From: a virus
Direction: 5' to 3' (one strand)
UHGV virus genome: UHGV-0344409
Length of the DNA: 15,727 bases
Position 1 is the stretch's first letter. Each line of letters starts with the position of its first letter. Under the pieces are notes generated by a model that had not been told where the DNA came from, ran no database searches, and saw nothing but the letters and a program-made list of their open reading frames with translations. The translations under genes were made by a program, and so were the position numbers. Positions 7,959-12,891 of the stretch are shown here, piece after piece.

Positions 7959-8277
7959 GCTTAACCTCCTTCATTCTGGTTTCAGCTTTTCTAAGCTCGG
8001 CAGGTGGAGTTTTTTGCGTTTTCTTTACAAAGCTATGCAACATAATGATTCGCTTTCCTTTTAGCGTGCAGTAAAAAACACGCCCTATGCCTTCCGAGCC
8101 CTTAAGGCGGATTTCAAACAAACCGTCGCCAAATGCCTCTGTATGCGGGGAACCAAGATTAGCTCCGTAAATACGCATTTTCTCCGTGTACCGAATGTAC
8201 CGGGCTTGTAAGGTCTCAGGAAGAGAAAGGATCTCAGCTTCAACCTCGTCACTGTAGTATTCGATAATGTAGTTCAT
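7948..8277 (-). CDS. HigB/RelE-family toxin (Gp49-like), toxin-first operon
   Basis: 109 aa from the ATG at 8277 (MNYIIEYYSDEVEAEILSLPE...RIIMLHSFVKKTQKTPPAEL), typical of HigB-like toxins; followed by the overlapping HTH antitoxin; candidate promoter TTGTCG-N17-TATATA on the minus strand (8329..8301). Confidence 0.7.
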   Translation of the reverse strand: MNYIIEYYSDEVEAEILSLPETLQARYIRYTEKMRIYGANLGSPHTEAFGDGLFEIRLKGSEGIGRVFYCTLKGKRIIMLHSFVKKTQKTPPAELRKAETRMKEVKHDW

Positions 8278-8300
8278 GAGAGTAAACATAACAAATTTGT

Positions 8301-8349
8301 TATATACATTCAAGGTATGTTGACGACAACACATATCCGGGATTATATT
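8301..8349. promoter_or_regulatory. back-to-back divergent sigma70-like promoters with overlapping -35 elements
   Basis: Plus strand: TTGACG (8320-8325), 17-18 nt spacer, TTATAT/TATATT (8343-8349). Minus strand: TTGTCG (revcomp of 8324-8329), 17 nt spacer, TATATA (8301-8306). Confidence 0.4.
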
Positions 8350-8411
8350 CTTCGCACGCCAGCAAAATCTGGCGTCGGGATTTGCACCCCGGATATTCAA
8401 CCGCGACAGAC

Positions 8412-8433
8412 ACACGCCGCGAGCGTGTTTTTT
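8412..8433 (+). terminator. intrinsic terminator-like hairpin in the leader upstream of the ORF6N gene
   Basis: ACACGC-cgcga-GCGTGT followed by TTTTT (8429-8433); about 75 nt downstream of the plus-strand promoter and 165 nt upstream of the ATG at 8598. Confidence 0.4.
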
Positions 8434-8597
8434 GTTGTCGTAAGCACACGCACATCTGAATTATGGTGGGGCGTATGGGGGAGCCGAAAGGCTCGCCGGT
8501 TGGTTGATCCGGTAGTGCAAACCCTGTACGTCTCACCACCCAAAGATTTGCACCTGACGGTGGTGATAGTTAAATTCATCAACCAGAGGGCGTTGTC

Positions 8598-9299
8598 ATG
8601 GCGACTCAAATTTCCGTTGAAACTCTTTCCCCAATTGCCTACAACCAGATCCCCGTAATTACTACAGAATTATTGGCGCAATTGTATGGCACTGAAACAG
8701 TCAATATAAAAATGAATTTTTCCCGTAACTCTGCGCGATTTGTACAGGGAAAACATTTCTTTAAGTTGGAAGGGAATGAACTACGTGAGTTTAAGCACAG
8801 ACTATCTTTAAGCGAGTCTGTTAGCCGCGAGGTAACAGAAAGTTACTCTGTGAAAATCGCCCGCAATGTTCGCTCCCTCATCCTCTGGACAGAACGCGGC
8901 GCAGCCCGTCACGCAAAAATGCTCGAAACCGATCAGGCGTGGGAAGTGTTCGAAAAACTGGAAGACTGCTATTTCAGCCAGGGAAAAACAGCACCAACCG
9001 AACAGCAGCCGCAGATTCAGCCACAATTCACAGCCGAGGAAATCATCCTCCTTTGCTACATGCAACTCTGGATGGAAAAAGCCCAGGACCTTAGCAAGCA
9101 GCTGTACCCCATAATGAAAGAGCTGAACTCCTCATACACGAACAAGCTGTATGACATTGCGTTTGAGACCATCTACATGGTGACGAAGAACAGAGACGCG
9201 CTACTAAGGGAGGTAACACGTCTCGACATGTCAAGTTCCGTTATCCAGCGGGCCATGCCAATGCTGAAAAGCCTGCGGGCAAGACAATTTGAATTCTGA
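8598..9299 (+). CDS. ORF6N-domain antirepressor-like protein
   Basis: 233 aa; AGAGGG RBS; N-terminal PVITTELLAQLYGTETVNIKMNFSRNSARFVQGKHFFKLEGNELREFK and ...WEVFEKLEDCYF fit the ORF6N (antirepressor N-terminal) pattern as recalled. Confidence 0.7.
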   Translation: MATQISVETLSPIAYNQIPVITTELLAQLYGTETVNIKMNFSRNSARFVQGKHFFKLEGNELREFKHRLSLSESVSREVTESYSVKIARNVRSLILWTERGAARHAKMLETDQAWEVFEKLEDCYFSQGKTAPTEQQPQIQPQFTAEEIILLCYMQLWMEKAQDLSKQLYPIMKELNSSYTNKLYDIAFETIYMVTKNRDALLREVTRLDMSSSVIQRAMPMLKSLRARQFEF

Positions 9300-9304
9300 A
9301 ACTA

Positions 9305-9327
9305 AAGGAGCTTCGGCTCCTTTTTTG
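9305..9327 (+). terminator. intrinsic terminator (tR2-like position, before ninB)
   Basis: AAGGAGC-ttcg-GCTCCTT followed by TTTTTTG; 6 nt after the ORF6N stop and 27 nt before the ninB start. Confidence 0.75.
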
Positions 9328-9353
9328 TTGGGAAAATCCAGTGAGAGGGAATA

Positions 9354-9764
9354 ATGAACCAGACTATCTTCCTCCGAAGTAAGCAGCAGCAACAATTCGC
9401 CATTAACGCCATCCTTGCAACAACTCTCGATAAAGACAAACCCGTTACGATCCGTATCACCGATTACAAGCGTAATCTCGCTCAAAATGCAAAATTTCAC
9501 GCGATGGTCGCTGATATATCCCGCCAGGTTAAGTGGTGCGGCAGGTGGCTAAAACCAGAACAGTGGAAAGTTTTGTTAATCAGCGGTCATGCCGTGGCGA
9601 CAAAACAGGAAGCTGATGTTTTGCCAGGTCTTGAAGGTGAATACGTCAATATCCGCGAAAGCAGTGCGCAAATGAGCGTGAAGCGTATGGCAAGCCTGAT
9701 TGAGTACACAACATCCTGGGCCGTGGATCAGGGTGTCAGATTTACCGACAGGAGGTACGAATGA
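9354..9764 (+). CDS. ninB: NinB (Orf-family recombination mediator)
   Basis: 136 aa; similar to lambda NinB as recalled ([10 protein letters not shown]...; ...[15 protein letters not shown]); GAGG RBS; followed by nin genes. Confidence 0.8.
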
Positions 9765-12181: not shown

Positions 12182-12399
12182 CTCACAATTCCACAGCTTG
12201 ATGATTGTCTGGCTGCCGGAGAATTTGTTAAAAATTGCATCGCGTGGTGAATCCCCCTCAGCGGCGGGGCATCTGGCAAAGTGTATGATCCAGCGAACAT
12301 GCAAATTCAGTAGCCAGGCTGAATTTACCGGGAGGCACCTGGCACCATGCGACAGACAGAAATTAGGCTATACTTCAGCCCCTCTCCGGAGGGGCTTTT
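12182..12399 (+). repeat. structured non-coding repeat unit, copy A (candidate sRNA), ending in an intrinsic terminator
   Basis: Ordered conserved blocks shared with copy B: CTCACAATTC, GATTGTCTGG, TTTGTTAAAAA, GGTGAATCCCCCT, GCGGnGGGGCAT, CACCGGGAGGCACC, CACCATGC. Hairpin AAATTCAG-tagccagg-CTGAATTT (12303-12326); terminator GCCCCTC-tccg-GAGGGGC-TTTT (12378-12399). Confidence 0.6.
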
Positions 12400-12589
12400 C
12401 TGTGCAGGATGTGTCACAGTTTCCTGAATTCTGAGTACTGTCCTGTTACTCAGGGTGCTATATTTTCTGACGTGATGAAAGTCTGCCGGAAGGCGGAACG
12501 TATCGGAAATGACCCAGTAGAGAAAACGTTGACTCAGATACCGATGCTGAGTTACCGGGAAACCGGCATCACATGACCGCTATCCTTCC

Positions 12590-12650: not shown

Positions 12651-12882
12651 CTCACAATTCAGGCTGGCGATTATTGTCTGGCCAGCGGGAAGTTTGTTAA
12701 AAAAATATGGCATGGTGAATCCCCCTGTGCGGAGGGGCATATCAGCGACAGGTGTTTGGTCACACCCCTTATCCTTTCTGGTGCGGGTTCAGGTGCTGAT
12801 ACTGAACTCACCGGGAGGCACCCTGCACCATGCATGAACGGTACATAGCGCTACTCTCCAGCCCCTCTCCGGAGGGGCTTTC
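12651..12882 (+). repeat. structured non-coding repeat unit, copy B (candidate sRNA), ending in an intrinsic terminator
   Basis: Same block order as copy A; hairpin GGTTCAG-gtgctgata-CTGAACT (12786-12808) carries a compensatory A-T to G-C change relative to copy A; terminator GCCCCTC-tccg-GAGGGGC-TTTC (12861-12882). Confidence 0.6.
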
Positions 12883-12891
12883 TTGTTGGAT

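What the first reader, a model, noticed from the sequence alone, without database searches (positions are those of the whole stretch)
8294..8597. Promoter, hairpin and terminator leader (about 75 nt) ahead of a long structured 5' UTR of the ORF6N gene
Back-to-back promoters share overlapping -35 hexamers (8320-8329). The plus transcript would start near 8356, form hairpin CGCCAG-caaaat-CTGGCG at once (8357-8374) and meet terminator 8412-8433. A further 165 nt with hairpins GAGCC-gaaa-GGCTC (8482-8495) and a duplicated GATTTGCACC (8379-8388 and 8547-8556) precede the ATG at 8598. This looks like an attenuator or antitermination-controlled leader, or a small RNA gene, controlling an antirepressor-like protein.
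Basis: seen in the sequence. Interest (0 to 1): 0.5.

Follow-up and report, generated by a model that had tools for sequence, protein, structure and literature searches.

The report
IsrK–C4 antisense switch for antirepressor
The "leader" is a known prophage RNA switch: a small RNA (IsrK), then an antisense RNA (C4) whose two exposed segments match sites at the ribosome-binding site of an antirepressor gene, so it is real but ordinary.

Summary
They belong to two curated RNA families. IsrK (RF01394) lies at 8356-8433, scoring 75.4 bits against a threshold of 50. C4 antisense RNA (RF01695) lies at 8459-8543, scoring 74.4 bits against 45.

The duplicated GATTTGCACC holds the two "a" target sites of C4. 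Site a1 sits in an IsrK hairpin loop and a2 sits just after C4. A second pair of sites, b1 and b2, matches the loop of C4 hairpin 2. Site b2 ends one base before the Shine-Dalgarno of the ORF6N/P22_AR_C antirepressor gene, whose ATG is at 8598.

In 21 loci, including P1, P4 and N15, the C4 segments and both target sets change together. None of 20,000 permutations reached the observed match.

This is the P1 immI / P4 seqA-CI-seqC / Gifsy-1 isrK layout. The most likely mechanism is that C4 blocks antirepressor translation and IsrK counteracts C4. That mechanism is inferred by homology and was not tested here.

Local differences:
- There is no icd gene.
- The Gifsy-1 "orf45" equivalent is only 14 codons.

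Verdict: already known. Interest is low.

The parts
8320..8349 (+). Promoter of isrK: -35 TTGACG (8320-8325), 18-nt spacer, -10 TATATT (8344-8349)
   Evidence: Consensus scan, 10 of 12 matches. It ends 6 nt before model position 1 of IsrK. The same TTGAC..-17/18-TATA.T arrangement lies upstream of IsrK in the other loci. The transcription start is inferred, not measured.
8356..8433 (+). IsrK small RNA (78 nt): stem-loop 1 (8356-8375), stem-loop 2 (8376-8391), intrinsic terminator (8412-8433)
   Evidence: RF01394, 75.4 bits against gathering 50, full length. The MFE fold equals the model structure. Stem 1 has 5 of 7 pairs with compensatory changes.
8381..8387 (+). a1 target site UUUGCAC, in the loop of IsrK stem-loop 2 (core of the first GATTTGCACC copy, 8379-8388)
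   Evidence: Complementary to a' at 8515-8521. Across 17 loci, 6 of 7 pairs are compensatory and 97.5% of cells are paired. Corresponds to site a1 as annotated in the P1 record.
8397..8402 (+). b1 target site UCAACC, in the single-stranded part of IsrK
   Evidence: Complementary to the C4 hairpin-2 loop. Cognate run averages 6.8 against 4.3 when permuted, with 0 of 20,000 permutations reaching it. Duplex -8.7 kcal/mol.
8403..8442 (+). Outer 'clamp' helix around the terminator (GCGACA 8403-8408 with UGUCGU 8437-8442); it can form only in read-through RNA
   Evidence: Predicted in all 19 loci folded, with different sequences in each (GCGACA:UGUCGU, GCGCAU:AUGCGU, GCGAUA:UAUCGU, and others). Function unknown.
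8459..8543 (+). C4-type antisense RNA: outer stem 8464-8480 with 8522-8538, hairpin 1 at 8481-8494, hairpin 2 at 8495-8513
   Evidence: RF01695, 74.4 bits against gathering 45, full length. MFE -44.6 kcal/mol, z = -4.9, same structure as the model. Outer stem has 7 of 17 pairs compensatory; hairpin 1 has 5 of 5.
8463..8507 (+). Mini-ORF of 14 codons starting in the C4 5' arm; positional equivalent of Gifsy-1 'orf45'
   Evidence: Its stop ends at 8507, 90 nt before the antirepressor ATG. The equivalent ORF runs from 3 to at least 200 codons in other loci, so it is not conserved (SW-37).
8501..8508 (+). b' : loop of C4 hairpin 2, UGGUUGAU
   Evidence: Complementary to b2 over 8 nt and to b1 over 6 nt.
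8515..8521 (+). a' : single-stranded junction GUGCAAA between hairpin 2 and the outer stem of C4
   Evidence: Complementary to a1 and a2.
8547..8553 (+). a2 target site UUUGCAC (core of the second GATTTGCACC copy, 8545-8554)
   Evidence: For a':a2, 6 of 7 pairs are compensatory and 99.2% of cells are paired across 17 loci.
8559..8566 (+). GGUGGUGA box, alternative partner of the C4 3' arm (UCACCACC, 8533-8540)
   Evidence: Across 17 loci, 4 of 8 pairs are compensatory and 97.8% of cells are paired. The helix forms in the MFE of the read-through RNA. It favours the conformer in which IsrK pairs with C4 in cis: -95.6 against -87.6 kcal/mol.
8578..8585 (+). b2 target site AUCAACCA, ending 1 nt before the Shine-Dalgarno GAGGG (8586-8590)
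   Evidence: Cognate run averages 8.05 against 4.86 when permuted, with 0 of 20,000 permutations reaching it. Duplex -10.7 kcal/mol including G8586. In the other loci the equivalent site ends 7-16 nt before the start codon or overlaps the SD.
8598..9299 (+). Antirepressor-like gene (233 aa; ORF6N plus P22 antirepressor C-terminal domain)
   Evidence: Pfam ORF6N 1.8e-20 and P22_AR_C 2.4e-07. 72% identical over 128 aa to the gene behind the same cassette in phage PA8.
9304..9329 (+). Terminator-like hairpin and T run that close the unit
   Evidence: 8-bp stem followed by a T run.

Best explanation
This is an IsrK-C4 antisense cassette placed in front of an antirepressor gene. It is the same kind of module as immI of P1/P7, immA of N15, seqA-CI-seqC of P4 and isrK-STnc1160-anrP of Gifsy-1.

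Likely sequence of events:
1. A sigma-70 promoter at 8320-8349 starts transcription near 8356.
2. Most transcripts stop at the intrinsic terminator and give the 78-nt IsrK RNA, which carries sites a1 and b1.
3. Some transcripts read through and carry the C4 RNA (8459-8543), sites a2 and b2, and the antirepressor mRNA.
4. C4 exposes two short segments: a' (GUGCAAA, a junction) and b' (UGGUUGAU, a hairpin loop). They pair with a2 (8547-8553) and b2 (8578-8585). Site b2 abuts the Shine-Dalgarno, so pairing keeps ribosomes off the antirepressor gene and the prophage stays quiet.
5. IsrK carries the same two sites and competes for a'/b'. It can do so in cis within the read-through RNA, a conformer stabilised by the GGUGGUGA box, and in trans as the free small RNA. 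Excess IsrK therefore releases antirepressor translation.

Shown here: family membership, structures, the three-way co-variation of the sites, and the position of b2 at the ribosome-binding site.

Inferred by homology: partial read-through, processing of C4, the repressing direction of C4, and the activating role of IsrK.
For: - Both RNA families match above their curated thresholds and over full length.
- The tandem recurs in 17 of 18 phage loci fetched, and in N15 and P4.
- P1 has C4 above threshold plus a weaker IsrK-like hit at 35.1 bits.
- The a':a2 and a1:a' helices each have 6 of 7 pairs with compensatory changes and are 97-99% paired. No shuffle in 500 reached the observed values, and slid controls collapse to 26-59% paired.
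- An alignment-free test over 21 loci gives cognate complementary runs of 6.8-8.1 nt against 4.3-4.9 for permuted partners, with 0 of 20,000 permutations reaching them. The same procedure recovers exactly the a1/a2/b1/b2 sites annotated in the P1 record.
- The composite pattern a..b occurs only three times in the window: in IsrK, in the leader, and as its complement in C4.
- Site b2 ends 1 nt before the SD here. It ends 7-16 nt before the start codon, or overlaps the SD, elsewhere.
- The read-through RNA is predicted to switch between a cis-paired and a C4-folded conformer. This matches structures A and B shown experimentally in Gifsy-1.
- In Gifsy-1, IsrK G28/G31 pair with C162/C159, which is a1:a', and IsrK supplied in trans raises anrP translation 139-fold (PMC4825925).
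- The P1 record annotates a2/b2 as 'repression of icd ant translation'.
Against: - No expression data exist for this locus.
- In Gifsy-1 a mutation in a1 within the long RNA raised basal translation, which a pure decoy model does not predict.
- In Gifsy-1, constitutive STnc1160 (the C4 homologue) did not relieve IsrK toxicity.
- The Gifsy-1 authors explain activation through an upstream ORF rather than through a2/b2, which lay outside the 1-180 nt they folded.
- The IsrK fold alone is not unusually stable (z = -1.5).
- The c4-a1b1 model scores 42.2 bits, below its gathering score of 46.7.
Confidence: 0.75

Rival explanations
1. The literal Gifsy-1 mechanism applies. The read-through RNA is silent because the ribosome-binding site of an upstream ORF (orf45) is buried in the C4 outer stem. 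IsrK opens that stem, and ribosomes translating the ORF run into the antirepressor gene by translational coupling.
For: The two AUGs of orf45 are conserved here, at 8463 and 8475, 12 nt apart as in Gifsy-1. Stop and start mutations in orf45 lowered activation in Gifsy-1. The two-conformer prediction holds here.
Against: Here the ORF is 14 codons and stops at 8507, 90 nt before the ATG, so coupling by ribosome run-through is not possible. Its length ranges from 3 to at least 200 codons across loci, so the AUGs look conserved as part of the C4 stem rather than as a gene. The model also does not explain why a2 and b2 co-vary with C4.
Confidence: 0.1
2. The main output is transcription termination, as described for P4 CI RNA and proposed for N15. 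On this view C4 pairs with a1/b1 and a2/b2 on nascent RNA and causes premature termination, either at the IsrK terminator or by Rho downstream. Translation block would then be secondary or absent.
For: P4 and N15 carry the same IsrK-C4 tandem above Rfam thresholds. The N15 record marks the IsrK terminator as a rho-independent terminator. The Gifsy-1 authors raise this possibility, and IsrK raised an anrP transcriptional fusion 8-fold. This rival is compatible with the best explanation, because un-translated mRNA invites Rho.
Against: No alternative antiterminator pairing was found around 8392-8433. Site b2 sits at the ribosome-binding site in every locus, which is what a translational block needs and a termination device does not. 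The translational effect in Gifsy-1 (139-fold) far exceeds the transcriptional one (8-fold).
Confidence: 0.25
3. One reading: a protein-controlled attenuator or antitermination leader, with N, Q or the HigA-like antitoxin deciding read-through at 8433.
For: A terminator lies between promoter and gene. The cassette lies in the nin region, where N-modified polymerase coming from upstream would ignore it (context).
Against: There is no leader peptide with regulatory codons, no cis-regulatory Rfam match, and no conserved terminator/antiterminator alternative. The same cassette works in P1, P4, N15 and APSE phages, which lack these proteins. The neighbouring toxin-antitoxin pair is absent from most loci.
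Confidence: 0.03

Closest known systems
Gifsy-1 isrK-orf45(STnc1160)-anrP-isrJ locus of Salmonella (Hershko-Shalev et al. 2016, PMC4825925)
   Same: - Promoter, then ~77-nt IsrK with a leaky terminator, then a C4-like RNA.
- An antirepressor with the same N-terminus (MTTQISVE...; SW-37 locus).
- The a1:a' pairing and two predicted conformers.
   Different: - The upstream ORF is 14 codons here and cannot couple to the antirepressor gene.
- No isrJ follows, only a terminator hairpin.
- The neighbouring genes are a HigB/HigA-like pair and ninB, not antQ.
- The a and b alleles differ.
immI of phages P1 and P7: c4-icd-ant with sites a1, b1, a2, b2 (Citron and Schuster 1990, cited in PMC3632133; P1 record NC_005856)
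   Same: - C4 RNA of the same Rfam family.
- Two target sites upstream and two downstream in the same order.
- The downstream b site next to the ribosome-binding site.
- An antirepressor as cargo.
- A GG.GG... box complementary to the C4 3' arm is also visible by eye in P1.
   Different: - P1 has icd between b2 and ant; here the antirepressor follows directly.
- The P1 a1b1 region scores only 35.1 bits with the IsrK model, and its terminator-like hairpin has a large loop.
- P1 Ant has the ANT/KilAC domain, whereas this protein has ORF6N plus P22_AR_C.
- P1's promoter is under a C1 operator. No operator is known here.
P4 immunity (seqA-CI RNA-seqC) and N15 immA (CA RNA)
   Same: Both carry IsrK and C4 above the Rfam thresholds, and the sites match in the same way. 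Barquist et al. 2013 already call this the 'IsrK-C4 immunity system'.
   Different: - The reported outcome in P4 is premature transcription termination of replication and derepression genes.
- The cargo is P4 epsilon, or N15 Ash-like, Icd and Bro-N proteins.
- The IsrK-to-C4 spacer in P4 is 107 nt, against 25 nt here.

Membership tests
IsrK small RNA (Rfam RF01394) | Covariance-model score at or above the curated gathering score, over full length | tested here: met
   75.4 bits against 50, model positions 1-77 of 77, at 8356-8433.
IsrK small RNA (Rfam RF01394) | Two 5' hairpins plus an intrinsic terminator, supported by compensatory changes | tested here: met
   The MFE equals the model structure. 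Stem 1 has 5 of 7 compensatory pairs and stem 2 is 100% paired. The terminator was mis-aligned by MAFFT (59% paired), but it folds in every locus.
IsrK small RNA (Rfam RF01394) | Own promoter, with a discrete ~77-nt Hfq-associated transcript plus a read-through isoform | not testable with these tools
   Only a promoter-like motif at the right distance and its conservation are available. There are no RNA data.
C4 antisense RNA (Rfam RF01695, clan CL00128) | Covariance-model score at or above the gathering score; long outer stem enclosing two hairpins | tested here: met
   74.4 bits against 45, model positions 1-87 of 87. z = -4.9. Outer stem has 7 of 17 and hairpin 1 has 5 of 5 compensatory pairs.
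immI-type antisense control (P1/P7) | a' and b' of C4 complementary to a2 and b2 downstream, with b2 at the ribosome-binding site of the first downstream gene | tested here: met
   a':a2 pairs over 7 nt and b':b2 over 8 nt. Site b2 ends 1 nt before GAGGG. Co-variation is shown.
immI-type antisense control (P1/P7) | A second copy of the sites (a1, b1) upstream of c4 | tested here: met
   a1 at 8381-8387 and b1 at 8397-8402. However, the c4-a1b1 model RF03163 scores 42.2 bits, below its gathering score of 46.7.
immI-type antisense control (P1/P7) | icd gene between b2 and ant, with translational coupling | tested here: not met
   The antirepressor ORF starts 12 nt after b2 and no icd-like ORF is present. 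This locus is therefore a relative of immI, not a copy of its operon.
immI-type antisense control (P1/P7) | C4 released from the precursor by processing, and repressing ant in trans | not testable with these tools
   Known for P1 and N15 from the literature (titles cited in PMC3632133). No data exist for this locus.
Phage antirepressor | Domains of known antirepressors | tested here: met
   ORF6N 73.5 bits and P22_AR_C 31.2 bits, both above their cut-offs. Activity was not tested.
Classical transcription attenuator or riboswitch leader | Mutually exclusive terminator and antiterminator, or a leader peptide, or a match to a cis-regulatory family | tested here: not met
   No cis-regulatory match at E up to 1 in 8250-9400. 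The segment 8392-8411 is unpaired in the IsrK fold. The only conserved pairing around the terminator encloses it rather than competing with it.

The most novel reading that the evidence does not exclude
The two short sites may form a combinatorial address that decides which co-resident prophages talk to each other. Among 21 loci there are 16 different a' heptamers and 21 different b' loops. One a allele (target UUGGCGU; three a' heptamer spellings) is shared by seven phages whose b alleles all differ. E. coli genomes carry up to three copies of this leader. An IsrK from one prophage could then partly titrate the C4 of another, so antirepressor release, and with it induction of Stx-type prophages, could be coordinated or insulated by RNA alone. 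A conserved bistable read-through RNA (the GGUGGUGA box and the clamp helix) would set the threshold.
Probability: 0.2. Interest if true: 0.5.

Novelty: already known. Interest (0 to 1): 0.2.

Why it matters
- **Annotation.** The element is real and functional-looking, but it is missing from the annotation under the match in RefSeq E. coli genomes. In most phage records it is also missing. In some it is covered by a spurious CDS, for example the Ant CDS in LC567819, orf44 of phage cdtI, cI of P4 and gp32 of N15.
- **Biology.** The cassette gates an antirepressor in lambdoid prophages, including many Stx phages. It is therefore a candidate route to SOS-independent induction, and so to toxin release.
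- **What the comparison adds.** The downstream a2/b2 sites co-vary with C4 as tightly as the IsrK sites do. The Gifsy-1 'orf45' is not a conserved gene. Both points favour direct occlusion of the antirepressor ribosome-binding site as the family-wide mechanism.

Tried and rejected
- **tRNA or tmRNA.** None found in the window.
- **Riboswitch or attenuator families.** No match at E up to 1.
- **c4-a1b1 model.** It is present but below its gathering score (42.2 against 46.7), so it is not claimed as a member by that model.
- **Upstream ORF as a conserved gene.** Rejected, because its length ranges from 3 to at least 200 codons.
- **Column-based counting for the b sites and the terminator.** MAFFT put them out of register, and the terminator showed only 59% paired. 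I used an alignment-free permutation test and per-locus folds instead.
- **Exact source in complete E. coli genomes.** The best match is 88.6% over 8200-8700. PhiR12 phages match at 98% from 8334 onward, and PhiR5_2 matches at 97.8% over 83% of the window.
- **Minus-strand promoter.** The scan did not detect it.
- **Site names.** My first labelling had a and b the wrong way round. I corrected it against the P1 record. The APSE-7 record labels them in the opposite sense to P1.
- **Literature.** Searches found no paper on this cassette in Stx phages. The work on the Phi24B ant gene does not mention an RNA regulator.

Full report
**What is in the sequence**

- A sigma-70-like site, TTGACG-18-TATATT, lies at 8320-8349.
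- The hairpin 8356-8375, the terminator 8412-8433 and the inner hairpin GAGCC-GAAA-GGCTC (8481-8494) are all present.
- The 10-mer GATTTGCACC occurs exactly twice, at 8379-8388 and 8545-8554. Chance expectation is 0.05 copies.
- The proposed minus-strand promoter is only a weak match seen by eye, and the scan did not report it.

**What it is**

A scan of the window against Rfam gave two full-length matches above the curated thresholds.
- IsrK (RF01394) at 8356-8433, 75.4 bits against 50.
- C4 antisense RNA (RF01695) at 8459-8543, 74.4 bits against 45.

The model of the 'a1, b1 targets of C4' (RF03163) also matches 8343-8395, but below its threshold (42.2 against 46.7).

C4 folds alone into the model structure at -44.6 kcal/mol (z = -4.9). 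IsrK folds into its three hairpins at -24.4 kcal/mol (z = -1.5).

So the '75-nt leader' is a small-RNA gene, and the 'long structured 5' UTR' is a second RNA gene.

**Related loci**

BLAST against phage genomes found 318 records with this leader. Most are Stx-converting and other lambdoid phages. Hafnia, Yersinia and Klebsiella phages and the aphid-symbiont phage APSE are also represented.

I fetched 18 diverse loci. Seventeen carry IsrK about 25 nt upstream of C4, both above threshold. The eighteenth, Salmonella phage SW-37, is a Gifsy-1-like locus with isrJ downstream and has a diverged IsrK.

N15 and P4 also carry both RNAs above threshold. P1 has C4 plus a weaker IsrK-like region at 35.1 bits.

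The APSE-7 record already annotates the pair.

The gene behind the cassette differs between loci, but it is always an antirepressor or derepression type:
- ORF6N plus P22_AR_C in this window
- Bro-N
- pRha
- ANT/KilAC in P1
- epsilon in P4

**The pairing code**

I use the site names of the P1 GenBank record.
- C4 exposes a' (GUGCAAA, 8515-8521), the junction after hairpin 2.
- C4 also exposes b' (UGGUUGAU, 8501-8508), the loop of hairpin 2.
- a' is complementary to a1 (8381-8387, in the loop of IsrK hairpin 2) and to a2 (8547-8553). These two sites are the cores of the duplicated 10-mer.
- b' is complementary to b1 (8397-8402) and to b2 (8578-8585).
- b2 ends one base before the Shine-Dalgarno GAGGG (8586-8590). 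The ATG is at 8598.

The composite pattern 'a site, 5-35 nt, b site' occurs three times in the window and nowhere else: in IsrK, in the leader, and as its complement in C4.

Evidence from the 17-locus alignment:
- The a':a2 helix and the a1:a' helix each have 6 of 7 pairs with changes on both sides, and 99.2% and 97.5% of cells paired.
- No shuffle in 500 reached the observed values.
- Sliding the partner by 1-3 columns drops pairing to 26-59%.

The b sites vary in length and MAFFT mis-aligned them, so I used an alignment-free test over 21 loci.
- The longest Watson-Crick run between each C4 element and its own IsrK or its own leader averages 6.8-8.1 nt.
- With permuted partners it averages 4.3-4.9 nt.
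- None of 20,000 permutations reached the observed mean.
- The same procedure recovers exactly the a1, a2, b1 and b2 sites annotated in P1.

In other loci b2 ends 7-16 nt before the start codon or overlaps the Shine-Dalgarno.

**Two further conserved elements**

First, a box GGUGGUGA (8559-8566) is complementary to the 3' arm of the C4 outer stem (8533-8540). Four of its 8 pairs show compensatory changes, and 97.8% of cells are paired.

In the predicted minimum-energy fold of the read-through RNA, a1/b1 pair with a'/b' in cis, the C4 outer stem is open, and its 3' arm pairs with the box.
- That conformer scores -95.6 kcal/mol for 8356-8570.
- The conformer with IsrK and C4 folded separately scores -87.6 kcal/mol.

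These correspond to structures A and B demonstrated for Gifsy-1. The Gifsy-1 authors folded only nucleotides 1-180, which excludes the box and the a2/b2 sites.

Second, in all 19 loci folded, the IsrK terminator is enclosed by an outer helix. It forms between the sequence just 5' of the terminator and the sequence just 3' of the U run, and the sequences differ from locus to locus. It can exist only in read-through RNA. Its role is unknown.

**How it most likely works**

- **Shown here.** Family membership, the structures, three-way co-variation of the sites, and placement of b2 at the ribosome-binding site.
- **Shown in relatives.**
  - In Gifsy-1, part of the isrK transcripts read through the terminator.
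  - In Gifsy-1, the long RNA is translationally silent.
  - In Gifsy-1, IsrK in trans raises anrP translation 139-fold.
  - In Gifsy-1, IsrK G28/G31 pair with C162/C159, which is a1:a'.
  - In P1, a2/b2 are the sites through which C4 represses icd-ant translation (annotation).
- **Inferred for this locus.** C4 pairs with a2/b2 and keeps ribosomes off the antirepressor gene. IsrK competes for a'/b', in cis and in trans, and so releases it.

I put the identity of the element near certainty and this direction of control at about 0.6.

Two Gifsy-1 observations do not fit a pure decoy model.
- An a1 mutation in the long RNA raised basal translation.
- Constitutive STnc1160 did not relieve IsrK toxicity.

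**Rivals**

- **Gifsy-1 upstream-ORF coupling.** It cannot apply literally here. The ORF that starts in the C4 5' arm is 14 codons and stops 90 nt before the ATG, and its length ranges from 3 to at least 200 codons elsewhere.
- **Termination-based output, as in P4.** It is compatible with a translational block and may add to it.
It has no support. No cis-regulatory family matched and no competing antiterminator was found. The same cassette also occurs in phages without N, Q or the toxin-antitoxin pair.

**Comparison with what is known, and novelty**

Barquist et al. 2013 already describe an 'IsrK-C4 immunity system' shared by P4, P1, P7, N15 and lambdoid Salmonella prophages. Hershko-Shalev et al. 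2016 dissected the Gifsy-1 locus. Rfam holds all three models.

This locus is another copy of that module, with three local differences:
- its own a/b allele
- no icd gene
- a truncated 'orf45'

The verdict is 'already known'. Residual value lies in annotation, in the comparative support for direct occlusion at a2/b2, and in the two conserved helices of the read-through RNA.

**Context**

The window is a lambdoid prophage segment, 97.8% identical to Escherichia phage PhiR5_2 over 83% of its length. The cassette itself is only 82.6% identical to that phage, and 98% identical to PhiR12 phages from 8334 onward. The module therefore appears to have been exchanged by recombination near its promoter.

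Noticed in passing
window 12212-12405 and 12681-12890 (+): Two tandem copies of the STnc100 small RNA family (RF02076, 138.7 and 129.9 bits) lie downstream of the gene at the Q position and upstream of a 667-aa ORF.
   Followed up: no
window 8290-8301: A perfect 12-bp palindrome, AACAAATTTGTT, lies between the start of the HigB-like gene (8277, minus strand) and the isrK -35 hexamer. It is a candidate operator for the HTH antitoxin.
   Followed up: no
window 8403-8408 with 8437-8442; same position in L001-L019: An outer helix encloses the IsrK terminator and U run. It forms only in read-through RNA and is present with different sequences in all 19 loci folded. It may be a processing or stability element.
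   Followed up: partly
window 8559-8566 with 8533-8540: A conserved GGUGGUGA box is an alternative partner of the C4 3' arm, with 4 of 8 pairs compensatory. It stabilises the conformer in which IsrK pairs with C4 in cis. It lies outside the 1-180 nt folded in the Gifsy-1 study.
   Followed up: partly
L012 664-1686; L018 440-1588; L020 620-1036; L019 1335-1625: Public records annotate protein-coding genes across the IsrK and/or C4 RNA genes: an Ant CDS in LC567819, orf44 of phage cdtI, cI of P4 and gp32 of N15. These are likely over-calls or historical annotations. RefSeq E. coli genomes list no RNA feature there.
   Followed up: partly
L001 1641-1665 versus L021 18256-18460: The APSE-7 record labels the C4 hairpin loop as a' and the junction as b'. 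This is the opposite of the site naming in the P1 record, where the 7-nt junction site is 'a' and the 8-nt loop site is 'b'.
   Followed up: yes
window about 8334: A mosaic joint. The window as a whole is 97.8% identical to phage PhiR5_2. The cassette is only 82.6% identical to it, and 98% identical to PhiR12 phages from 8334 onward.
   Followed up: partly
L002 1638-1721, L004 1636-1719, L007 1663-1746, L017 1684-1758: Another small RNA family often follows the antirepressor gene: sRNA-Xcc1 (RF02221) in Stx phages and isrJ (RF01393) in the Gifsy-1-like phage. The window has only a terminator hairpin at 9304-9323.
   Followed up: no
21 loci: The a allele UUGGCGU is shared by seven phages (WGPS6, phi419, YpM44, O157 typing phage 9, cdtI, SW-37 and phi419-like), and their b alleles all differ. 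This suggests the two sites assort independently.
   Followed up: partly
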